Below, piece after piece: positions 28,389-64,000 of a DNA stretch of 64,000 bases. The first letter of the stretch is position 1. The number at the start of each line of letters is the position of its first letter. Source of the stretch: an uncultured Nitrososphaerota archaeon (lineage in GTDB: Archaea; Thermoproteota; Nitrososphaeria; Nitrososphaerales; CADDZS01); NCBI GenBank assembly GCA_963799845.1, contig CAWCYI010000006.1, positions 864,001 to 928,000 on the forward strand. Direction: 5' to 3'. Position numbers and translations under genes: made by a program. The notes under the pieces are model-generated. The model ran no database searches and was not told where the DNA came from. It worked only from the letters and a program-made list of their open reading frames with translations.

Positions 28389-29796
28389 TTGACTCTACGA
28401 AAAATTGGCAACGATTTGTCTACTAATCTCCCCTTGACTACAACGCTTTACTTCGACAAGGGTAGCATAGTTGTGAGAGGACAGTTTGGAGTTCCCAACG
28501 CTGTGTGGGATGAAAGAATCAGAGCCTTCCGGACCCAAGCTTTTCACTACAAAGAAATACTCAATTATCTGGACCAAAGCCGCCTCCAATTTCAGGACAA
28601 CGTGCAGGATTTAGTGCCGTGCCCGCACCTGAGTTGTGACGCGCTCCTCCTTAGAGGTTACCAGAAAAAGGCTCTGAAATCTTGGGAAAGTGCCGGCGGG
28701 CGAGGGGTGATAGTTCTTCCAACTGGAGCGGGCAAGACCGTAGTCGCCCTAAAGGCAATCGAGCTCGTAAACAAGCCAACCATAGTGATCGTTCCCACGC
28801 TAGACCTCTTAGAGCAGTGGAGGAAGAGGATCAGCAAGGAGTTCAACATCGAGACTGGAGTCCTCGGCGGAGGTGAAAATATCATCAGGGCTGTTACCGT
28901 TTCAACCTATGACTCGGCATATCTCAGGGCGGGAGAGATCGGCAACAAGTTCAGCCTGCTTGTCGCGGATGAAGTCCACCATATCGCATCCGAAGGATAT
29001 AGACAGATCGCTGAGATGTTCAGCGCTCCATTCAGGATGGGTCTCACCGCGACACTCGAGCGAGAGGACCTTCTTCACAACGATATTCCAAGGCTCATGG
29101 GAGGGACAGTCTTCAGGCTTGAACCAGAAGACCTTGCCGGCCGATATCTATCGGATTACTCTCTTGAAAAAATAAATGTGGATCTCTCAGACGAAGAGAG
29201 GGAAACGTACACAAGACACCACAAGATATTCACTGACTTTCTTGCCTCAAGAAAGATTCGGATTTCGAGTCCCCTTGAGTTCCAGCGCTTCATAATGAGA
29301 AGCGCTTCGGATAGAGAGGCTAGAAAAGCTCTACTTGCAAGAAACAAAGCGCTTGAGATTTCACTCAACTCTGACGCAAAAATAGAGGCCCTTGAAAAGA
29401 TCTTGCAGTCGAATCCAAATGAAAGAATACTGATTTTCACCCAGCACAATCAATTGGTGTACAAGATTTCAAGGAGATTTCTTCTCCCGTACATCACTTA
29501 CAGGACAGACAAAGATGAGAGGCACAAAATCCTTGACGGCTTCAGAGACGGTAGCTACAGGGCGATTGTGACCTCCAAAGTCCTGGATGAAGGAATAGAC
29601 GTCCCGGAAGCTTCCCTAGGGATAATACTGAGCGGGTCGGGTAGCTCGCGGGAGTTCGTCCAAAGGCTCGGAAGATTGCTCAGGAAGAAGGAAGGAAAGG
29701 GTAAAGCTGAAGCTTATCGAGTTGGTCTCGAGAGAGACTTCCGAGGTTTCCACGAGTTCAAGAAGGAAAACAAAGAGGTCGAGAGAAAGTAAATGA
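28389..29796 (+). CDS. xpb: XPB/Rad25-type SF2 DNA helicase (frameshift near the C-terminus, ~29708)
   Basis: LPTGAGKT, DEVHH, GLTAT, LDEGID and QRLGR; the shifted frame gives KLIELVSRETSE..SRR to TGA at 29794-29796. Confidence 0.88.
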
Positions 29797-29884
29797 GGAA
29801 AAAATCGAAGTTTCAGAAAGAGAAATGGCGTCGACTCAACTCTAATGAAGCAATGATATTCAGTTAGAAACCGGTTCTTGAACG

Positions 29885-31546
29885 ATGCTTCCATCTCCTC
29901 TTCTACGAGCCCGCGTATCGAAGGGAAGGCTGAGCCCTAAATATGTGACATTAAACGATGAAACAAACGCGCTGTCTAAGAGCGTCATCAACTCATACGA
30001 AGCCAGCACCGGGAAGAAGAAAGAGCACCTCCTTCGGATGCTCAAGGAGCTCGAAGAAAAGGAGCCTGATTACAAGCTTGTCAGGGGATTGGCGGAGCTT
30101 TTGGAGAGACGATGCAACTATCTTATCGAGAGCCCGATAGATCCAAAACATGCTAGGGACCTAACTTTCAGAGAAGCGAGCAAAAGAAGAGCCGTCAGCT
30201 TTCCAGAACGGAGCCAGGTCATTCAAGATGTTAGCGATAAGCTAAAGGTAGATCCGAATGACATTGAGAATTCTTTGTGGAAGGATCTAGAGGAAGAACA
30301 GATACTGGAAGGATTTTTGACTATCGACTCCAAGACGCTCATCAAACAGTACAACTTTGCCCTAGCTCAGACAGCTCTTTTCAAAAGCACGAAGATGGAG
30401 TTCACGGCCAGCGGCAACTGGAAGAACATTTTCAGAGACCTAAAATATCTTGGTCTCATGTACGCCGTAGAAAGGAAGAAGGGTAATGACGATGGAAAGA
30501 TAAATGAGGAGGGATACACCGTCTCGATTGAGGGTCCACTATCTCTTTTCAAACTAACCGATAGGTATGGCACTTCATACGCCAAACTCTTGAATCAAAT
30601 TATCCTCAGTGATTCGTGGAGCTTCAAAGCAGAGCTCTTTGACAGAATCAGGAATAGAATCCTTTACTTTGAAGAGGATAGCGGAAGTGTTTTTGGGTTG
30701 TTCGAATCGAACTGGACACCTACCGAACCAACCAAGTATGACGGTGCGGCGATTGTGTCATCGCCAAAGAAATCGCCATTCATGTTTCAGCGGCAAAACA
30801 TTCATCTTTATGACAGCAAGGTCGAAGAAAAATTTGCATCCGGATTCAACGCCCTGAGAACAGGATGGGCGCTCAAAAGAGAGCCGGAGCCATTGGTTGC
30901 GGGAAGCCATGTACTTATTCCGGATTTTAGTTTTGAGAAGGAAGGCCTGAAGGTCTATCTCGAAATTGTCGGATTCTGGACAACAGATTACCTTGAACGC
31001 AAGCTTGCAAAGCTTTCCTCCCTTTCGCCAGATATTGAAATGATCGTCGCGGCAGACGAAAGTCTCGCCTGCTCAACGAAATTTGAAAGAATTAAACAAA
31101 ATAGTAAAAGGCTGTTGTTATTTTATTCCAAGGTGGTTCCAATCTCCCCTATACTAGGCTATCTAAATGGGTTGGACGCGGTAGCGAGAAAAAGACGGGT
31201 TGAGATCCTTCGCAAGGAGAGGTTCGAGTTCCATGAAGATATCATCACTATCAAGCGTCTTGCAGACGAACGTCAAGTTTCTCTGGAAAGTATGAACGAG
31301 ACATTCTCTCAAATCCGGATAGATGGATACGCAAAAATTGGAGATTATTTGGTGAGTCTATCTAAAATTTCCAAATTGAAAAGAGAGCTGAGAGCTCTTG
31401 GAGATGACTCCAGTCTAGCCCGTGCGGTAGAGATGATCGAATCTGAAGGGCTGCAGAATCCTCAACAAGTGCTCAGCACTCTCGGTTACACCATAGACTG
31501 GCAAGGATTAGACTACGAAAAAAGTAAGATAAGGTTGGCTAATTGA
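29885..31546 (+). CDS. bax1: DUF790 / Bax1 nuclease, partner of XPB
   Basis: YNFALAQTAL, GLMY, GPLSLF..T.RYG, REPEP..IPDF and EIVGFWT.DYL.RK; canonical position downstream of xpb. Confidence 0.88.
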   Translation: MLPSPLLRARVSKGRLSPKYVTLNDETNALSKSVINSYEASTGKKKEHLLRMLKELEEKEPDYKLVRGLAELLERRCNYLIESPIDPKHARDLTFREASKRRAVSFPERSQVIQDVSDKLKVDPNDIENSLWKDLEEEQILEGFLTIDSKTLIKQYNFALAQTALFKSTKMEFTASGNWKNIFRDLKYLGLMYAVERKKGNDDGKINEEGYTVSIEGPLSLFKLTDRYGTSYAKLLNQIILSDSWSFKAELFDRIRNRILYFEEDSGSVFGLFESNWTPTEPTKYDGAAIVSSPKKSPFMFQRQNIHLYDSKVEEKFASGFNALRTGWALKREPEPLVAGSHVLIPDFSFEKEGLKVYLEIVGFWTTDYLERKLAKLSSLSPDIEMIVAADESLACSTKFERIKQNSKRLLLFYSKVVPISPILGYLNGLDAVARKRRVEILRKERFEFHEDIITIKRLADERQVSLESMNETFSQIRIDGYAKIGDYLVSLSKISKLKRELRALGDDSSLARAVEMIESEGLQNPQQVLSTLGYTIDWQGLDYEKSKIRLAN

Positions 31547-36478: not shown

Positions 36479-36535
36479 TTTACTAGTAAATCCCGAGTGC
36501 GAGATTTGGGATTTGAACCCCAATTTACTAGTAAA
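36479..36535. repeat. Palindromic repeat family 1, unit B (two TTTACTAGTAAA cores)
   Basis: TTTACTAGTAAA-TCCCGAGTGCGAGATTTGGGATTTGAACCCCAA-TTTACTAGTAAA. Confidence 0.9.
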
Positions 36536-39549: not shown

Positions 39550-39755
39550 GATGTTGGCTCATCATTGTGCACGGTGGAGGACTTGCTTTCACGAACGCGC
39601 TGTTCGCGATTCTCGACGAAATCGTTACGAAGTTGCTTGAGCGATAATTTGTCACTCTAGAATATACTAAAATGGGACTCGCACCCTTGGGCCTCATCTT
39701 TTACTAGGTGACATGATCGACCGTATTAAAGGAACGTAAAGCCACAGCCAAGCAC

Positions 39756-40732
39756 ATGTACGCAGCAATAGACTTGCACCAAAAAACTGTACAGCTAGTA
39801 CTCAAGGATGAAGGGGGAAGGATAGAAAACGAGCTGAAGATCAACAAGGATGCAAAAAGCATACTCGAATTTCTTGATGGTACTGATGCTGAAATAGTCA
39901 TGGAGTCTGGTTACAACCACGAACACATCTATGATCTTCTAAAGGAGGAAGGATACGATGTCAAGGTAGCTCATCCATTGATGGTTAAGGCGATCGCATA
40001 CGCAAAAGTGAAAAATGACAAGGTAGACGCAAGGACACTTGCAGATCTACTGAGACTGGACATGATACCGGAGTGCTACATCCCCAGCCAAGAGATAAGA
40101 GAAGTAAGAGACCTGGCAAGGAGGAGACATTATTTCGTCTCGACAAGAACGATGTTCAAAAACAAAATCCATGCAGAGCTCAGCAGGAGATGGATTGATT
40201 ACAGTAAAGATCTCTTCACGCAGACTGGGATGGACCATCTAAAATCGCTTCATATCGCAGCGGTAAATGACTACCTCGACTCAATTCAGTTCCTCGATGA
40301 GAAGATACGAGAGCTTGACGGCCAAATCAAGGAAAAGCTCTTGGCGACAAATATGCGAAGCTCCTTGTGACGGTGCCAGGAATATCCTACTACGGTGCGC
40401 TGCTGATTTCAAGCGAGATTGCAGACATCAACAGATTCCCAGACCCAGAACACCTGTGCTCCTATGCAAAACTGGCACCCGGAACTCATCAATCGGGAGA
40501 GACACAATACCAGAAAGCAGATCGTAACAAGGGCAATCACATGCTCAACTGGATATTGATCCAGTGTGCTCACATACACGTCCTAAACTGCAACTCGTCG
40601 ATTACTGGGCATTACAACAGGATCAAGGAAACGAGGGGAAACAAGATCGCCATCGTCGCAGCAGCAAGAAAACTGACGTGCGCAATCTACATGATGCTGA
40701 AGGAAGAAAGAGCCTTCAGGCTGGACGGCTAA
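39756..40732 (+). CDS. IS110-family DEDD recombinase (frameshift in an A-run, ~40335)
   Basis: AAIDLH, VMES and KNDKVDA catalytic motifs; TVPGI, HQSG serine and AARKL. Restoring one A gives KALGDKYAKLLVTVPG. Confidence 0.9.
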
Positions 40733-40740
40733 AACCATAA

Positions 40741-40887
40741 ACTGGGCTCGAGAATTTACTGCATCTTCAGGATGCGTTTACTAGGATGAGCCAAAGGCAA
40801 TAAGCGAAAGCCACAATGCTCTTTTGGAGCGAATGGGAGTATGCTCGTCCAGCATGACAAAAGAGATATTAAGAAATGTAGCCCAGT
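40741..40887 (+). ncRNA. Candidate bridge/seek RNA in the IS110 right end
   Basis: Loop 1: GAATTTACT-[GCATC TTCAG GATGC]-G-TTTACTAG, closed by GGCTC/GAGCC. Loop 2: GCCACAAT-[GCTC TTTTG GAGC]-GAATGGGAG. Flanking ACTGGGCT/AGCCCAGT inverted repeat. Confidence 0.75.
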
Positions 40888-40898
40888 CGACATGGGAG

Positions 40899-40964
40899 TA
40901 AAATCTACTTGCGAAGAAAATCCGTGGCGGAATGTGGGACCCCCGCACGAATTTACTAGTAAAA
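40899..40964. repeat. Palindromic repeat family 1, unit C (first core split by IS110)
   Basis: ...AATGTGGGACCCCCGCAC-GAATTTACTAGTAAA (40949-40963). Confidence 0.9.
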
Positions 40965-41130
40965 GATCGCCTCAAAAAAATCCGAAATTCACAATGGTCA
41001 CAGTAGTCGTTCTAGCTCGCTCTGACTCTGGCCTAGAAGATACCCTTCATCTTTGTCCAATTCCAAGGCTGGTTACAAGAAGATTCGATTATTGAATACT
41101 AGAATCTTGGACGTTCTTTGGGAACAAGAA

Positions 41131-43200: not shown

Positions 43201-43311
43201 GTGGGGGCGACCCCCGCACGAATTTACTAGTAAAAATCCATCCCGGTGCGTAACTCCACAGTCGATGAGTTTAGGCTAGAAACGGGATTCGGACGCGAAT
43301 TTACTAGCAAA
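43201..43311. repeat. Palindromic repeat family 1, cores D and E
   Basis: ACCCCCGCAC-GAATTTACTAGTAAA (43220-43234), then ATCCCGGTGCG; GGGATTCGGACGC-GAATTTACTAGCAAA (43297-43311). Confidence 0.88.
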
Positions 43312-43827: not shown

Positions 43828-44463
43828 ATGGGTTTCTGAGAAATTCTGATTCCGCAAGACAAGATATTTTTTGAGTCGTTCACGCACCAGGCGAAGAATA
43901 TCCTTCTCGCCTCGCAAAAGCTGAATGCAGCGTTTGATACGAAAGAACTTTCCATTGATGAAGCGAGAAATGCGATTCGAGAGATCGAGCATGAAAGCGA
44001 CCAGCTCGTTCACTCCATTTATGATCGATTGAACGAGTCCTTTGTGACTCCGATTGACAGCGATGATATTCTGAAACTGTCGTCAGATTATGATACCATA
44101 GTCGATTTCATCTGGGCGACCATTAATCGGTACTATCTCTACAAGATTTCCTCACCCGACGAAACGATGAAGAGGTTCTCGCAAATAGTGGTAAAATGTG
44201 GTGAAGAGATCGTGAAGCTCACTTCAGCAATGACTACGAAATCAAAACTGAAACAACAGAATGGGAGTGCTGAAGAGATCGACAGGCTCGAGAACGAGGG
44301 AGACGAATTATTGAACGGCGCGGTCGCCAAGTTGTTCGATGAGAAAAAAGATGCGCTCGAGGTAATGAAACTGAAGGAGATTTACGAGCACCTTGAGGAA
44401 ATCACCGATAGGTACGAAGACGCTGCTCTACTCATAAGGGATATCGCCCTGCGGTATTCCTAA
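43828..44463 (+). pseudogene. DUF47 (PhoU-like) phosphate transport regulator with an in-frame TGA at codon 4
   Basis: ATG GGT TTC TGA GAA ATT CTG ATT CCG CAA GAC reads MGF*EILIPQDKIFF...IEHESD...FVTPID..D; in frame with ORF 44029-44463. Confidence 0.8.
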
Positions 44464-44572: not shown

Positions 44573-45609
44573 TTGGTGATCGATCAGACACTTCTCATTG
44601 TTGTTGGTCTCATCTTTCTCGCATTAGCATTCGATTTTGTGAACGGTTTTCATGATACTGCGAATTCCATTTCCACAGTCGTTTCAACAAGGGTACTTTC
44701 TCCCAGACTCGCAGTGTTGGTCGCGGCAACCTTCAATTTTGTCGCGTTTTTTGTGGTGGGAGCACCCGTCGCGAAATTCATAGGAGGAAGTATCATTTCT
44801 TCACCGTTGTTTGTCGGTAACCTGATTCTAGAGCTGGTATTTGCAGCGCTTATCGGAGGAATAACCTGGGACCTGATAACATGGTATCTAGGTCTTCCTT
44901 CCTCTTCTTCCCATGCGCTTATTGGCGGCTTGGTAGGTGCTGGCGTCGCTGCGGCTGGAACCAGCGTCGTAAAACTTGCTGGACTCGAAGTCGTTCTCGA
45001 ATACATGGTGCTTTCTCCCATCATCGGAATGATCGTGGCTTTTGGTATAATGATTGGACTGCTCAATCTTCTGAAAAAACTGGCTCCAGCCACCGTGAAC
45101 AAATATTTTCGTAGATTACAGATCGTTTCTTCAAGTGCAGTTTCATTCAGTCACGGATCCAATGACGCTCAGAAAACCATGGGAGTCATAACATTCCTTC
45201 TTATCGGGACAAATTACCTCTCTTCTGGCGGTAATGCGTCTACTGCTTTCCAAGTTCCAGTCTGGGTTGCTCTTGTATGTTTACAACAATTGCATTGGGC
45301 ACGTTTACAGGAGGTTGGAGAATCATAAGAACGATGGGCATGCGTATTACTCATCTCGATCCTATTCATGGCTTTGCTGCTGAGACGGCTTCAGCGGCTG
45401 TGATTCTTGGTGCGAGCTTTTCTGGGATTCCTGTCAGCACTACTCATGTTGTTTCGGGTTCGATTATGGGAGTTGGATCAACAAAGAGATTTTCGGCGGT
45501 TAGATGGGGGATAGCAAGGAGAATTGTTTGGGCGTGGATCATTACCATTCCAATGTCAGCTCTTGTAGCTGGAGGAGTCTTCATACTGACGAAATTTTTG
45601 GTGGGATAA
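44573..45609 (+). CDS. pit: PiT-family inorganic phosphate transporter (frameshift in a T-run, ~45281)
   Basis: NGFHDTANS, GLPSSSSHAL, HGSNDAQK, GGWRII.TMG and PVSTTH. Confidence 0.9.
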
Positions 45610-47597: not shown

Positions 47598-47743
47598 TCT
47601 CGCGATTCACGTTAAGGCAGAAATGAAATGTGCAGAGGACGCTTGTAGGCCTTTGGAGTGTAAGTAAAGCAGTTCTCCGAGAGATTATCCAAATTGTTAA
47701 TTGAAAGAATGCTCCCGGCTTATCGAGAATTGTGGGTTTGGGC

Positions 47744-47784
47744 TTACTAGTAAATCCCGAGTGCGAAATGTGGGACCCCCGCAC
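47744..47784. repeat. Palindromic repeat family 1, unit F
   Basis: TTACTAGTAAA-TCCCGAGTGCGAAATGTGGGACCCCCGCAC links the B-type and C/D-type variants. Confidence 0.9.
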
Positions 47785-52795: not shown

Positions 52796-54232
52796 ATGTC
52801 TCTCAAGAATGACGCCATACGCGGCTCGCTCAAGAAAACTAAGGAGAGACGGAGGACTCAAACCTGTAAGCAATACGAGCTGAAAATAGATACTTCCCAT
52901 CTCAGCGACAAGACACACAAACATCTCGACAGATTATTTCTCGAAGCCAAGTGGTTCTACAATCATGTGCTTGCAAACGGAAACATATTCGAGGCCGACT
53001 ACAGGTTGGGCGCGGTCCGTGTCAAGGCAAAGAATGGTTTCGAAACAAGAGAAATCCGATGCCTATCATCCCAGATGAAACAGGAACTCATCGACAGGAT
53101 GAGAGACAACATCAGATCACTTTCCAGGCTGAAGAAGAGCGGACACAAAGTTGGTGCGCTCAAATTCAAAAGTGAAATCTGTTCCATCCCACTCAAGCAG
53201 CAAGGGATGACGTACAAGATCATCGATAAGCACTACGTCCACATTCAGGGAATCAAGCAGGGACTCAAAACAAGAGGGATTTTTCAGCTTCCTGCGAGTG
53301 CCGATCTTGCATCCGCTCTTCTGGTCCGAAAGCATGGAGACTACTATCTACATGTGACGACATACCAGACTAAAGTAGTTCCGAAGCATCGGGAAGAAGA
53401 ACAGCCATCAAAAAGCGTAGGCATAGACTTGGGAATCAAAAACCAGCTCACGCTATCAAGCGGGATCAGAATCAACTACGAAGTGCCAATAACAGACCAT
53501 ATGAAGAAGCTGTGCAGGAAGCTAAGCAGAAAGAAATACCACAGCCACAACTGGTGGAAGGCAAAAACGAAACTGGATAAAGCCTATGACGAGACGACGA
53601 GCGTCAAAAAGGATATCCAGAACAAGCTTGTGCGCGGACTCACAAAACAGTTCACAACGATTTGCTATCAGGATGATACAATCAAAGCCTGGCAGCGGAT
53701 CTGGGGAAGAAGAATCTTGAACACCTCGCTCGGCGGAATAATCAGTGCGCTTGAAAAGAAGGCACAAACGCCGAGGAAAGTGGATAGCTTCATTCCCACG
53801 ACCCAGAAATGCTCGCGTTGCAACGCAAGGAATCAGGTCACTCTTGCGGATCGAATCTATGAATGCACATACTGTGGTCTCGTAATGGACAGAGACTTGA
53901 ACTCCGCGATAAACATCGAAAAGGAAGGAGGAGTACCTATGGTGCATAGGGAATTAACGCCTGCGGACACTCTTGCCTATACTCTCTTGGAATACTTCAA
54001 CAGCATTCCACACATCAGAGCAAGCATGGTGGTTGAAACAGGAAGCCCTGCTATGGTCGTGGAGAAGCCCACGATCTTCACAGTAGTTGCGAATCAAGTA
54101 TGCTTTCCTTTCATGTCAAATGACTTGTTCATGATTAGACCGATGAGAAGGAGTTTCATTTGTATTACTTCCACCGATTCGTTCGGATGGAGCAGCTCTT
54201 GGTTGGCATTGTACATGACCCACGAATTGTAG
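52796..54232 (+). CDS. tnpB: TnpB RNA-guided endonuclease-family protein; native last codons displaced by the nested IS
   Basis: VGIDLG, CSRC/CTYC zinc finger and DRDLNSAINI; native end EKPTIFSRG* has its stop at 55269-55271. Confidence 0.9.
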   Translation: MSLKNDAIRGSLKKTKERRRTQTCKQYELKIDTSHLSDKTHKHLDRLFLEAKWFYNHVLANGNIFEADYRLGAVRVKAKNGFETREIRCLSSQMKQELIDRMRDNIRSLSRLKKSGHKVGALKFKSEICSIPLKQQGMTYKIIDKHYVHIQGIKQGLKTRGIFQLPASADLASALLVRKHGDYYLHVTTYQTKVVPKHREEEQPSKSVGIDLGIKNQLTLSSGIRINYEVPITDHMKKLCRKLSRKKYHSHNWWKAKTKLDKAYDETTSVKKDIQNKLVRGLTKQFTTICYQDDTIKAWQRIWGRRILNTSLGGIISALEKKAQTPRKVDSFIPTTQKCSRCNARNQVTLADRIYECTYCGLVMDRDLNSAINIEKEGGVPMVHRELTPADTLAYTLLEYFNSIPHIRASMVVETGSPAMVVEKPTIFTVVANQVCFPFMSNDLFMIRPMRRSFICITSTDSFGWSSSWLALYMTHEL

Positions 54233-57225: not shown

Positions 57226-58349
57226 ACCTGGCCGACATAAGTTCATAGACACCTGTTGGTCAGAAGGAATTTCTTCATGTCAAGATGCGAGCAAAACCTT
57301 CGCGTTCGATAGTATTCTGCCAGGATTGATTTCAGTTCTTTCAATGACGTCGGAAAGGTTGGAAGCCTTGAGAGATCCTTCTCACCCTCGCGCCAACACT
57401 CCTCCATCATGTTGAACTCTGGCGAAGCTGTCGGGATCCATCTGACTCTGAGAGTCTTCCTGTTCTTACCCAAATAATCAGTTACGATCCTGGTTTTGTG
57501 GTGTTGCCTTGCTTTGTCAAGGAAGAGATAGAGTGATCCAAACTTCCTGTGCACCTTCTTCAGGTAGTCGAGGAATGTCTCGCCATTGAATTTCTCGTAC
57601 TGCCTGAAGATTTGTGTCCCGTCCAGGCTGATCGCTCCAAACACCACGGTGTTGCCGTGCGAGCCTGACACAATCCGAATCGGTCGAATCCCTTTGACCG
57701 CCCACACCCTTTTGGTTTCTATGTTCTGGACGAAGATTGATTCGTCTTCGGATGCTACGGTGAAGCCTTCCGGGATATTCCTGAGGAGTCTTGCGGTCCT
57801 TTTTTAAATTCGAGCCTCTCTTCGAGGGAAGCCTTGTGAAGTAACCTCTTGTCAGGGACAATTGCTCTCACTCCCCACTTCTGCATCAACCTGTAGATGT
57901 GTCTCTCAGTGTATGCCACGTCTGCTTCCTTGCGGATCATCTCCCTGACCTCCTTCACGGTCCAGCCGCATTCGTTCTTCACGACCTTCCTCTTCACCGC
58001 AATGAACTTGTTGTGATCGAGCTTCGGAGGTCTCCCGCTCCTTTCCATCGTCTTGAGTCCTTCTAGCCCATCTTTCTCGAAACGTCTAAGCCACGGTGTC
58101 GTCCATGATTTGTGCCGGTGAACTTCCCTTGCTACGTGCGACGCCGGGACACCCTCGTACTTGACCTTCAGAACGAGGAATATCCTCTTGCTTACGTTTG
58201 CGTCCCTCTCCTCTCTATAAGCCTCTTCAACAATCTCCTTCGGTGCCTGTAATCGAGACATACAACCTGAGATAGGAAGGGAAGTTGGCCAAAAATGAGA
58301 ATGTCTAGGTCTGTGGCCCTTTCAGTCTAATAATTTATGTCGGCCAGGT
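57226..58349 (-). mobile_element. IS630-family insertion sequence
   Basis: Perfect 15-bp TIR ACCTGGCCGACATAA; TA duplication at 57224-57225 and 58350-58351. Confidence 0.92.
57243..58261 (-). CDS. IS630 transposase, two ORFs joined by a probable -1 programmed frameshift
   Basis: HTH ORF 57755-58261 with RSGRPPKL; TTTAAAAAAG at ~57799-57808; DDE ORF with SEDES, LDKA..H and SPEFN.ME..W. Confidence 0.88.
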
Positions 58350-63659: not shown

Positions 63660-64000
63660 ATGACGAGAGTCGGAATAGACGCACATAAGAAGAGCTGCAC
63701 CACGCAGGTCTTCGCGGACGGAGAAGAGTCACCCATACAATCCTTCGTCTTCAAGACGAGCAGGGCAGGAGTCTCTGAGATGCTAGCAAAGATTCCGGAC
63801 AAATCTGTATTTGTCATCGAATCTAGCACAACTGGAAAGGCGGTCACGAGAATGATTTCTTCTTTCGCATCAAACCAGCACGTGATTCACATGGTTGCGC
63901 CACCAGAGAAGAAAGCATCTGTGAAAACCGATAAGAGAGACTGCGAGCGTATCGTCAAGGAGGATGCACTGGGCTACTTGAGAAGGTGCTACGTTCCCTC
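63660..64000 (+). CDS. IS110-family recombinase, N-terminal part (runs off the window)
   Basis: MTRVGIDAHKKS...VIESS...KTDKRDC...L..CYVP DEDD motifs; absent from the ORF track because it is truncated. Confidence 0.85.
   Translation, partial: MTRVGIDAHKKSCTTQVFADGEESPIQSFVFKTSRAGVSEMLAKIPDKSVFVIESSTTGKAVTRMISSFASNQHVIHMVAPPEKKASVKTDKRDCERIVKEDALGYLRRCYVP

What the first reader, a model, noticed from the sequence alone, without database searches (positions are those of the whole stretch)
39701..40964. Archaeal IS110 whose bridge RNA is programmed against a multicopy palindrome, with guides and insertion site all readable
Seen: the 3' non-coding end has an internal loop with GAATTTACT (40752-40760) and TTTACTAG (40777-40784) on either side of a small hairpin. 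A second loop carries ATGGGAG (40833-40839), identical to the element's own right end. Deleting the element at the shared AG core restores TTTTACTAGTAAAA, which on the minus strand reads GATTTTA-CT-AGTAAA, one mismatch from the loop. Established: IS110/IS1111 bridge (seek) RNAs use left and right target guides around a 2-nt core (CT in IS621); IS621 targets REPs and some IS1111 elements target integron attC sites. Inference: this recombinase targets GAATTTA-CT-AGTAAA. Exact copies lie at 40949 and 43220, and near copies at 36479, 36521, 43297, 47744 and 55434. Because the target is palindromic, each site could accept either orientation. The left donor guide match is only partial (GCCAC vs GTCAC).
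Basis: partly seen in the sequence, partly recalled or inferred. Interest (0 to 1): 0.92.

Follow-up and report, generated by a model that had tools for sequence, protein, structure and literature searches.

The report
Archaeal IS1111-type insertion sequence with bridge RNA
This is a mobile DNA element in a soil archaeon that appears to use its own small guide RNA to insert into a short palindrome repeated between genes, an archaeal example of a mechanism already known from bacteria.

Summary
Window 39708-40898 is a 1191-bp IS110-family element of the IS1111 type in a Nitrososphaerota genome. It has a short left end, a 325-codon DEDD transposase, a 166-nt 3' non-coding region and subterminal inverted repeats.

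The 3' region folds into two stem, internal-loop, hairpin modules. Loop 1 carries GAAUUUACU and UUUACUAG, which match the right and left flanks around an AG core. All four copies in this genome sit in TTACT-AG-TAAA.

Across 55 parsed homologous elements, both loop-1 strands covary with their own flanks (0 of 10000 permutations each). The four helices show compensatory changes (0 of 500 shuffles). Loop 2's 3' strand tracks the element's right end in 50 of 50 cases. Its 5' strand is invariant and does not covary with the left end.

The target is one arm of a ~57-nt intergenic REP-like unit: 40 exact palindromes against 0.4 expected. Natural insertions occur in both orientations.

The frameshift is probably an assembly error: a public contig identical over 40000-40855 apart from one extra A gives an intact 325-aa ORF.

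RNA expression is untested. This is a new member of a known kind, of moderate interest.

The parts
39700..39707 (+). Left half of the target: left target TTTACT (39700-39705) plus core AG (39706-39707).
   Evidence: Read directly. All four left junctions in this genome read TTACTAG|GTGACATG.
39708..40898 (+). The insertion sequence itself: 1191 bp, counting one copy of the AG core at its right end.
   Evidence: Copies in the genome define both ends. The conserved ends AG|GTG.. and ..ACATRGGAG| recur in homologs.
39708..39755 (+). Short left end. It holds the left subterminal inverted repeat CATGATCGAC (39712-39721), a TATA-like TATTAAA (39724-39730) about 30 nt before the ATG, and the conserved AAAGCCACA (39738-39746).
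   Evidence: The promoter reading is inference only.
39756..40370 (+). Transposase N-terminal part (DEDD/RuvC-like domain), 204 codons, as written in the assembly.
   Evidence: Pfam DEDD_Tnp_IS110, E=3.2e-19.
40333..40336 (+). A-run where the assembly's reading frame breaks.
   Evidence: A contig of run X1 (857 nt, depth 14.8 of 21, identical over 40000-40855 apart from this) has one extra A behind 40332. With that A the ORF from 39756 runs 325 codons. The 84% identical copy has one more base here.
40367..40732 (+). Transposase C-terminal part, 121 codons, with the ..P....SG motif (LAPGTHQSG).
   Evidence: Pfam Transposase_20, E=8.4e-18. Translation.
40744..40844 (+). Predicted bridge/seek RNA core of about 100 nt. 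Its true 5' and 3' ends are unknown.
   Evidence: Conserved across 35 aligned homologs. Four helices: 98.8% of cells paired, 9 of 16 pairs changed on both sides, 0 of 500 shuffles. G-U pairs in 35 of 35 rows at two positions fit only this strand.
40746..40791 (+). Target-binding module. Closing stem GCTC 40746-40749 with GAGC 40788-40791; 5' guide GAATTTACT 40752-40760; hairpin 40761-40775; 3' guide TTTACTAG 40777-40784.
   Evidence: Guide-flank covariation.
40804..40844 (+). Donor-binding module. Closing stem GCG 40804-40806 with TGC 40842-40844; invariant 5' strand AAAGCCACAA 40807-40816; hairpin 40817-40831; 3' strand with ATGGGAG 40833-40839, identical to the right end.
40886..40898 (+). 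Right subterminal inverted repeat GTCGACATG (40886-40894) and the terminal GGG-AG.
   Evidence: The repeat changes together with the left end in the major clade: TCGAC/GTCGA here, TCGC/GCGA there.
40899..40964 (+). Rest of the disrupted target unit: right target TAAAATC (40899-40905), inner tRNA-T-arm-like segment (about 40927-40951, reverse orientation) and the second palindrome TTTACTAGTAAA (40952-40963).
36479..36535 (.). Uninterrupted two-palindrome repeat unit (palindromes at 36479-36490 and 36524-36535).
43223..43311 (.). Further target copies (43223-43234 exact; 43300-43311 one mismatch).
47743..47754 (.). Further target copy (CTTACTAGTAAA), 20 nt downstream of a gene on the minus strand.

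Best explanation
Window 39708-40898 is an IS1111-type member of the IS110 family in an archaeal (Nitrososphaerota) chromosome. Its DEDD transposase probably works with a roughly 100-nt RNA made from the 3' non-coding region, on the same strand as the gene.

The RNA has two internal loops. [quoted passage not shown] Together these direct insertion at the AG of TTTACT-AG-TAAA(TTC).

In loop 2, the 3' strand AAUGGGAG pairs with the element's own right end (CATGGG-AG) at the circle junction. The 5' strand (AAAGCCAC) is a fixed motif that can pair with at most GTG(G) at the left end.

The target is the palindromic arm of a multicopy, intergenic REP-like unit of about 57 nt, so the element lands between genes and in either orientation.

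Shown here: the ends, the target, the conserved fold, guide-flank covariation, and agreement between loop 2 and the right end. Inferred from the IS621, ISEc11 and other characterised systems: that the RNA is made, binds the transposase and drives recombination.
For: Family and architecture:
- Pfam DEDD_Tnp_IS110 and Transposase_20.
- 48-nt left end against a 166-nt 3' non-coding region, and subterminal repeats CATG(A)TCGAC.

Insertions in this genome:
- Four events, all at TTACT-AG-TAAA.
- Two copies are 99-100% identical to each other, which suggests recent movement.

Covariation across homologs:
- 63 loci had a transposase C-terminus. 55 were parsed by the hairpin-1 pattern, 48 had a right flank and 44 a left flank. 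They carry 26 distinct 5' guides and 29 distinct 3' guides.
- Guide-flank matching: 5.33 of 7 against 3.27, and 4.58 of 6 against 2.07, each with 0 of 10000 permutations reaching the observed value.
- Core AG occurs in 55 of 55 3' guides and 49 of 51 right ends.
- Loop 2 ATRGGAG agrees with the right end at the variable R in 50 of 50 cases.

Fold:
- 35 sequences, 16 pairs, 98.8% of cells paired, 9 pairs changed on both sides, 0 of 500 shuffles. Slid controls reach only 18-60% paired.

Agreement with published work:
- The order of the strand matches is the one published for IS1111 seekRNAs (PMC11187229, abstract and section 9).
- The location in the right end is as published for IS1111 bridge RNAs (PMC11208160, section 12).

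Target pool: 14 exact and 44 one-mismatch 15-nt sites in the genome, against 0 and 1 in a reversed-genome control.

Host: the SSU rRNA fragment is best matched by the archaeal model at 776 bits. All 16 genome-contig loci come from Nitrososphaerota or archaeal MAGs.
Against: - No RNA evidence. The two metatranscriptome runs laid cover only 39699-39812 (X20 also 39929-40079), at 8 to 16 differences, so they come from a relative. Nothing covers the non-coding region.
- No Rfam family matches.
- The second donor strand does not covary with the left end, so full bridge-RNA style donor recognition is not shown.
- As assembled, the transposase is frameshifted. The other copies are damaged: one is interrupted by a group II intron, one carries several frameshifts, and one is a 120-nt fragment.
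- No empty-site or circle-junction contig was seen.
- The homologs are related, so covariation counts are not fully independent events, although 24 distinct guide sets were used.
Confidence: 0.88

Rival explanations
1. The transposase protein itself recognises the palindrome or the DNA hairpin of the repeat unit, as was once thought for elements that target REP or attC sites. On this view the loop matches are incidental.
For: The target is a perfect palindrome inside a unit that can fold into a long hairpin. One donor-loop strand is invariant, which would fit protein recognition.
Against: Relatives with other loop sequences insert into unrelated, non-palindromic sites that match their own loops, for example TGGCG-CT with AG|CGCCA and GGGATT-CT with AG|AATCCC. 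The permutation tests gave 0 of 10000.
Confidence: 0.04
2. The element is an inactive relic. The frameshift is real, and the guide matches only record past activity.
For: The assembly shows a frameshift in both the window copy and the C4 copy, which are 100% identical over 869 nt. The other copies are degraded or interrupted.
Against: A contig of run X1 at depth 14.8 of 21, identical over 40000-40855 apart from one extra A, gives a 325-codon ORF. The DEDD and SG positions are conserved. Two near-identical copies imply recent transposition. A phosphate-transporter gene in the same window is also split between two frames, which fits indel errors in the assembly.
Confidence: 0.15
3. The repeats are recombination sites of another system, either integron-like attC cassette arrays or att sites of tRNA-integrating elements. 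On this view the insertion sequence is an archaeal counterpart of the IS1111-attC group.
For: The units lie next to single accessory genes and are co-oriented in long runs. Their inner part resembles a tRNA T-arm plus acceptor strand. The units are imperfect palindromes.
Against: Only 3 Phage_integrase matches exist in the genome, none near a repeat cluster. The window has no tRNA gene. The T-arm-like segment does not form a proper 5-bp T stem (read directly). The units are most often between convergent genes, 22 of 47, as REP-like or terminator-like elements are.
Confidence: 0.07

Closest known systems
IS1111-family insertion sequences with a seekRNA (ISEc11, ISPa11, ISKpn4, ISPst6; Siddiquee et al. 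2024, PMC11187229)
   Same: Transposase of about 330 aa with DEDD and ..P....SG motifs. Long non-coding region downstream of the gene. Subterminal inverted repeats with short terminal extensions. RNA segment complementary to the top strand lies 5' of the one complementary to the bottom strand. Natural reprogramming among relatives.
   Different: Archaeal host (Nitrososphaerota). Only about 22% identity to IS4321/IS5075 over 84% of the length. The subterminal repeat is short, 9-10 bp with a 1-nt bulge. The target is a palindrome, so orientation specificity is relaxed. No experimental RNA data.
IS621 bridge RNA system (IS110 group; Durrant et al. 2024, PMC11208160; Hiraizumi et al. 2024, PMC11208158)
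   Same: Two internal loops, each flanking a hairpin, the first for the target and the second for the donor. A 2-nt core is read by both target guides. The core is CT on one strand (AG in this element's frame). It targets an intergenic repeat (REP).
   Different: The RNA lies at the 3' end rather than the 5' end, and the guide order is reversed. Only one donor-loop strand tracks the element's end. Similarity to the IS621 protein is weak (E=7.6e-8, partial).
ISHvo9-family and other haloarchaeal IS110-family transposases
   Same: These are the closest annotated relatives in the plasmid collection: 35.6-38.9% identity over 98-100% of the length. They are archaeal.
   Different: Different phylum. 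I did not examine their non-coding regions or targets. PMC11187229 (section 13) reports no clear target consensus for ISHvo9.
IS elements that target REP sequences or attC sites (ISPpu9/ISPpu10, IS621, IS1111-attC group)
   Same: Site-specific insertion into a multicopy intergenic palindromic repeat, which acts as a safe harbour.
   Different: The repeat here is an undescribed 57-nt unit: two 12-nt palindromes around a tRNA-T-arm-like 33-mer. No integron context.

Membership tests
IS110 family (DEDD transposases) | Transposase with a DEDD_Tnp_IS110 (RuvC-like) domain and a Transposase_20 domain | tested here: met
   PF01548 E=3.2e-19 and PF02371 E=8.4e-18. Full-length 325-aa homologs carry both domains.
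IS110 family (DEDD transposases) | Site-specific insertion with no target duplication beyond a shared 2-nt core | tested here: met
   AG lies on both sides. Four insertions in this genome are at TTACT-AG-TAAA. The same pattern holds in homologs.
IS1111 group | The longer non-coding region lies downstream of the transposase gene | tested here: met
   Left end 48 nt; 3' non-coding region 166 nt.
IS1111 group | Subterminal inverted repeats (7-17 bp) set in from the termini | tested here: met
   CATG(A)TCGAC at 39712-39721 against GTCGACATG at 40886-40894, four nt in from each end. It changes in step in the major clade. It is imperfect, with a 1-nt bulge.
IS1111 group | Transposase falls inside the IS1111 clade in a phylogeny | not tested
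   Only pairwise figures: 22.5% identity to IS4321/IS5075 over residues 4-276, and weak partial hits to IS621 and ISCro4. No tree with ISfinder references was built.
Bridge RNA / seekRNA-guided recombination | [quoted passage not shown] | tested here: met
Bridge RNA / seekRNA-guided recombination | Guides covary with target sites across relatives | tested here: met
   0 of 10000 permutations for each guide; 24 distinct guides each.
Bridge RNA / seekRNA-guided recombination | A second loop with both strands matching the donor (the joined element ends) | tested here: inconclusive
   The 3' strand matches the right end in 50 of 50 cases. The 5' strand is invariant, and only CAC/CCAC can pair with the left end GTG(G).
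Bridge RNA / seekRNA-guided recombination | The RNA is expressed, binds the transposase and is required for transposition | not testable with these tools
   The RNA runs laid gave no cover of the non-coding region. This needs wet-lab work.
Integron attC / IS1111-attC association | Target repeats belong to a cassette array served by an integron integrase | tested here: not met
   Three Phage_integrase matches in the genome, none near a repeat cluster.

The most novel reading that the evidence does not exclude
This Nitrososphaerota clade may use a simplified donor rule. Only three guide segments are read by base pairing: two for the target and one for the right end. The fourth strand is a fixed AAAGCCAC motif that is also present, in the same sense, between the TATA-like box and the start codon in the left end of nearly every relative. 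That motif could be a protein-binding or self-regulatory site linking RNA loading to transposase expression. The palindromic REP-like target, a possible bidirectional terminator derived from a tRNA, would let the same ribonucleoprotein insert in either orientation. Over time this could invert or shuffle the single-gene modules that lie between the repeats.
Probability: 0.15. Interest if true: 0.6.

Novelty: new member of a known kind. Interest (0 to 1): 0.4.

Why it matters
This is a fully readable archaeal case of RNA-guided transposition: the ends, the core, both target guides, one donor guide and many unoccupied targets all sit in one genome. Its relatives form a natural reprogramming series in soil and peat Nitrososphaerota, with 26 distinct 5' guides and 29 distinct 3' guides among the 55 elements parsed. 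This extends the bridge/seekRNA picture to a mesophilic archaeal phylum. It offers compact candidates (a 325-aa recombinase and an RNA of about 100 nt) for tools in archaea. It also points to an undescribed REP-like repeat family that may mark the ends of transcription units. It does not change the known mechanism.

Tried and rejected
Rfam: no family reached its threshold in the window. Around the element only chance-level hits appeared, with E of 0.36 or higher.

Integron/attC idea: rejected, because no integrase lies near the repeats.

tRNA att-site idea: not supported. ARAGORN finds no tRNA in the window. My genome-wide ARAGORN runs gave intron-rich and partly doubtful calls, and I did not use them further.

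Orthologous empty site: a search of 30 relatives with the left flank found only weak gene matches in 2 genomes, so there was no empty-site comparison. The uninterrupted paralogous palindromes serve in its place.

Public runs: no contig joins across the element, and no circle junction was seen. The RNA runs X18 and X20 cover only the 5' part of a diverged relative. This says nothing about whether the non-coding RNA is expressed.

Donor loop 5' strand against the left end: no covariation. The same motif in the left end also does not change together with the loop copy.

The palindrome with up to 2 mismatches is dominated by noise, 201 sites against 321 in a reversed-genome control, so only sites with 0-1 mismatch were used (79 against 11).

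The split phosphate-transporter gene shows no obvious homopolymer at the frame change. It is therefore only weak support for assembly indels.

Palindrome counts in relatives are low, 0-6 per genome. Those genomes are fragmented MAGs, so this says little.

Supplementary files of the papers were not opened. Supplementary Table 5 of PMC11208160 and the supplementary figures of PMC11187229 may already list archaeal IS1111 RNAs.

G001, one of the relatives, is flagged unpublished.
Full report
What is there. The ORF list and Pfam show an IS110-family transposase written as two frames. 39756-40370 is DEDD_Tnp_IS110 (E=3.2e-19) and 40367-40732 is Transposase_20 (E=8.4e-18). The stop codon is followed by 166 nt of non-coding sequence up to ...ACATGGGAG (40898).

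The window is G000:C6:864001-928000 of a 4.6-Mb, 9-contig genome. An SSU rRNA fragment in that genome is best matched by the archaeal model at 776 bits. Homologous elements in named records all come from Nitrososphaerota or archaeal MAGs, 16 of 16 genome-contig loci.

Ends and target. A search of the genome with the element finds:
- the window copy;
- a copy on C4 that is 99-100% identical but interrupted after element base 329 by about 1.95 kb encoding a group II intron reverse transcriptase/maturase;
- an 84% identical copy at C6:961379-962579 with several frameshifts;
- a 120-nt 5' fragment on C1.

All four left junctions read TTACTAG|GTGACATG, and all three right junctions read CATGGGAG|TAAA. 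The element is therefore 39708-40898. It inserts at the AG of TTACT-AG-TAAA and duplicates nothing beyond the ambiguous AG. The finding's interval also includes 7 nt of left flank and 66 nt of right flank.

The non-coding region. Between the 84% copies the coding region is peppered with changes, yet the 3' region is almost identical. The few differences fall in hairpin loops or are compensatory, GCTC/GAGC against GTTCC/GGAAC.

I collected relatives. 342 proteins match at E<=1e-10, and full length is 325 aa. There are 16 loci from genomes and 80 from metagenomes. 63 loci held the transposase C-terminus.

An alignment of 35 distinct non-coding regions gives a consensus of four helices. Counted against an explicit structure, 98.8% of 560 cells pair. 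9 of 16 pairs change on both sides. 0 of 500 shuffles reach the observed values. Partners slid by 1-3 columns pair in only 18-60% of cells. Two positions are G-U in 35 of 35 rows, which fits an RNA read from the + strand only. The window's own sequence folds with z=-2.36.

The architecture is two modules, each a closing stem, an internal loop and a hairpin:
- 40746-40791: loop strands GAATTTACT and (G)TTTACTAG.
- 40804-40844: loop strands AAAGCCACAA and AATGGGAGTA.

Do the loops read the DNA? For 55 of the 63 loci a simple pattern located hairpin 1. The eight not parsed were L013, L024, L047, L049, L083, L084, L089 and L094: distant outgroups, truncated loci or variant hairpins. Of the 55, 48 had at least 7 nt of right flank and 44 had a left flank. 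They carry 26 distinct 5' strands and 29 distinct 3' strands.

Taking one representative per distinct guide:
- The 7 nt before the core complement in the 5' strand equal the reverse complement of the 7 nt right of ...GGAG at 5.33 positions on average. Mismatched pairings give 3.27 (n=24; 0 of 10000 permutations).
- The 6 nt before AG in the 3' strand equal the 6 nt left of AG|GTG at 4.58 positions, against 2.07 (n=24; 0 of 10000).

Examples: TGGCG-CT with AG|CGCCA; GGGATT-CT with AG|AATCCC; GGTTA-AG and TGTTAA-CT with GGAGGTTA-AG-TTAACAGG. The worst cases, 3 of 7 and 3 of 6, are listed. The right-end and left-end motifs that define the flanks do not depend on the guides.

In the element's frame, the 5' strand is complementary to the top strand (core plus right target). 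The 3' strand is complementary to the bottom strand (left target plus core). This is the order reported for IS1111 seekRNAs, and the reverse of IS110/IS621 (PMC11187229, abstract, sections 9 and 14; PMC11208160, sections 6-7 and 12). The core is AG, which is CT on the other strand as in IS621. It is AG in 55 of 55 3' guides and 49 of 51 right ends.

Donor loop. The 3' strand ATRGGAG agrees with the right end CATRGGAG at the variable position in 50 of 50 elements: 33 G/G and 17 A/A, two of which have a changed core. This may reflect few evolutionary events. The 5' strand (R)AAGCCAC is invariant, while positions 4-5 of the left end vary (GTGAC, GTGGG, GTGAA, GTGAT, GTGGA, GTGAG). So only GTG or GTGG can pair, and there is no covariation.

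The same AAAGCCAC occurs, in the same sense, in the left end between a TATA-like box and the ATG of nearly all relatives. I cannot explain this.

Subterminal inverted repeats exist (CATG(A)TCGAC here, ATG(C)TCGC in the major clade) and change together at both ends.

The frameshift. Contigs of four public runs were laid on 39601-41000. One 857-nt contig of run X1 is identical to the window over 40000-40855 except for one extra A behind 40332. X1 is the best holder and possibly the source sample. The contig's depth is 14.8 of 21. With that A the ORF from 39756 is 325 codons long, the length of the intact relatives. The catalytic D/E/D/D positions and the SG motif are present. The 84% copy also has one more base at this spot. 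A phosphate-transporter gene in the same window is likewise split between two frames, with no clear homopolymer at the break. I take the frameshift to be an assembly or consensus error, or a minority allele, but only raw reads can settle this.

The target repeat. TTTACTAGTAAA occurs 40 times exactly in the genome against 0.41 expected. With up to 1 mismatch there are 79 sites, against 11 in a reversed-genome control. The full 15-nt target predicted from the two guides (TTTACTAGTAAATTC) has 14 exact and 44 one-mismatch sites, against 0 and 1 in the control.

In 34 of the 79 sites the palindrome abuts a conserved segment. This is either TTCGTGCGGGGGTCCCACATTCCGCACTCGGGA or TTGGGGTTCAAATCCCACATTCCGC.., which resembles a tRNA T-arm plus acceptor strand. 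14 complete units have a palindrome on both sides, 45 nt apart, and can fold into one long imperfect hairpin.

A profile of these units finds 56 hits, 55 of them distinct places. By crude ORF calling, 8 lie inside ORFs and 47 are intergenic. Of the 47, 22 lie between convergent genes and only 4 between divergent ones. Of the 40 exact palindromes, 36 are intergenic, while 21% of the genome is intergenic by the same calling. In the window, four of four units lie 0-170 nt downstream of a co-oriented gene.

There is no tyrosine recombinase near any cluster. I therefore read the units as REP-like, possibly terminator-associated repeats, not as attC or att sites. Relatives in other MAGs and metagenomes that carry the same guides are also inserted next to T-arm-like segments, so the element and the repeat family travel together.

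Orientation. Relative to the asymmetric unit, insertions occur both ways. The right flank runs forward into the unit in L003 (the C6 copy), L022 and L024/L026. It runs in reverse in the window copy and L023. The left flank is the reverse unit in L064 and L086, and by eye in L007. The guides reach 3 nt beyond the palindrome, so one orientation at the TTC side is the perfect match (15 of 15 in the C6 copy) and the other orientations have 1-3 mismatches.

Comparison with what is known. The closest annotated relatives are haloarchaeal IS110-family transposases, including the ISHvo9 family, at 35.6-38.9% identity over 98-100% of the length. IS4321/IS5075 align at 22.5% over residues 4-276. IS621 and ISCro4 give only weak partial matches.

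RNA-guided targeting by IS110 and IS1111 elements, the 3' location of the RNA in IS1111, the reversed guide order and natural reprogramming are all published (PMC11208160 and PMC11187229; I read passages and named sections, not the supplements). PMC11187229 states that the IS1111 family is abundant in bacteria and archaea. A preprint counts 662 archaeal IS110 recombinases (10.1101/2024.06.21.599552; passages read).

In the listings of two searches I saw no paper that combines bridge/seekRNA terms with Thaumarchaeota, Nitrososphaerota or haloarchaea. One 2012 paper mentions IS110 in soil Thaumarchaeota (listing only). The finding is therefore a new, well-documented member of a known kind.

Verdict. 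Confidence in the RNA-guided reading is 0.88, without expression data. Interest is moderate at 0.4. The case is a clean archaeal example with a natural guide series and an undescribed target repeat, but the mechanism is as expected.

Noticed in passing
G000:C4:1954936-1956883 (L002:212-1408): The second, near-identical copy of the element is interrupted after element base 329 by about 1.95 kb. The insert encodes a 398-aa group II intron-type reverse transcriptase with a maturase domain (RVT_1 E=3.1e-38, GIIM E=4.9e-14).
   Followed up: partly
window 39738-39746 and 40807-40815: AAAGCCACA occurs in the same sense both in the left end, between a TATA-like box and the ATG, and in the 5' strand of the second RNA loop. 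Both copies are conserved in nearly all relatives but do not change together. Unexplained.
   Followed up: partly
window 44573-45328 and 45277-45609: A PHO4 phosphate-transporter gene is split between two overlapping frames (profile positions 1-251 and 253-350). This is either a second frameshift in the assembly or a pseudogene. The PhoU_div gene upstream (44029-44463) covers only profile positions 68-209.
   Followed up: partly
window 52796-54232 (+): TnpB-like protein (OrfB_IS605 plus Cas12f1-like TNB domain), 478 aa.
   Followed up: no
window 57243-58261 (-): IS630-like transposase written as two ORFs: HTH domains at 57755-58261 and DDE_3 at 57243-57707.
   Followed up: no
window 63915-64000 and G000:C6:927915-928658; also C4:1233981, C6:959914, C6:1073043: A second, distant IS110-family paralog (open frames of about 415 aa, E=3.8e-32 to the profile) is present in at least four similar copies. 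One starts at the very end of the window and one lies beside the 84% identical copy of the element studied.
   Followed up: no
G000:C4 and C6: The repeat units keep one orientation over long runs, and the orientation flips in intervals that contain copies of the element. On C4 the flip lies between 1952558 and 1957820, and on C6 between 947229 and 961328. This could reflect gene-strand bias or past inversions.
   Followed up: no
window 28389-31546 (+): An XPB-type helicase (ResIII/Helicase_C/XPB_DRD) is followed by a DUF790 protein. From recall, this resembles the archaeal XPB-Bax1 gene pair.
   Followed up: no
tRNA annotation of this genome needs a dedicated tool.
   Followed up: no
L006 (named MAG contig, 90% identical transposase): A close relative carries GATTTTACT instead of GAATTTACT in the 5' guide. 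That is the exact complement of the window copy's right flank, AG-TAAAATC: a one-base natural retuning within the palindrome family.
   Followed up: partly
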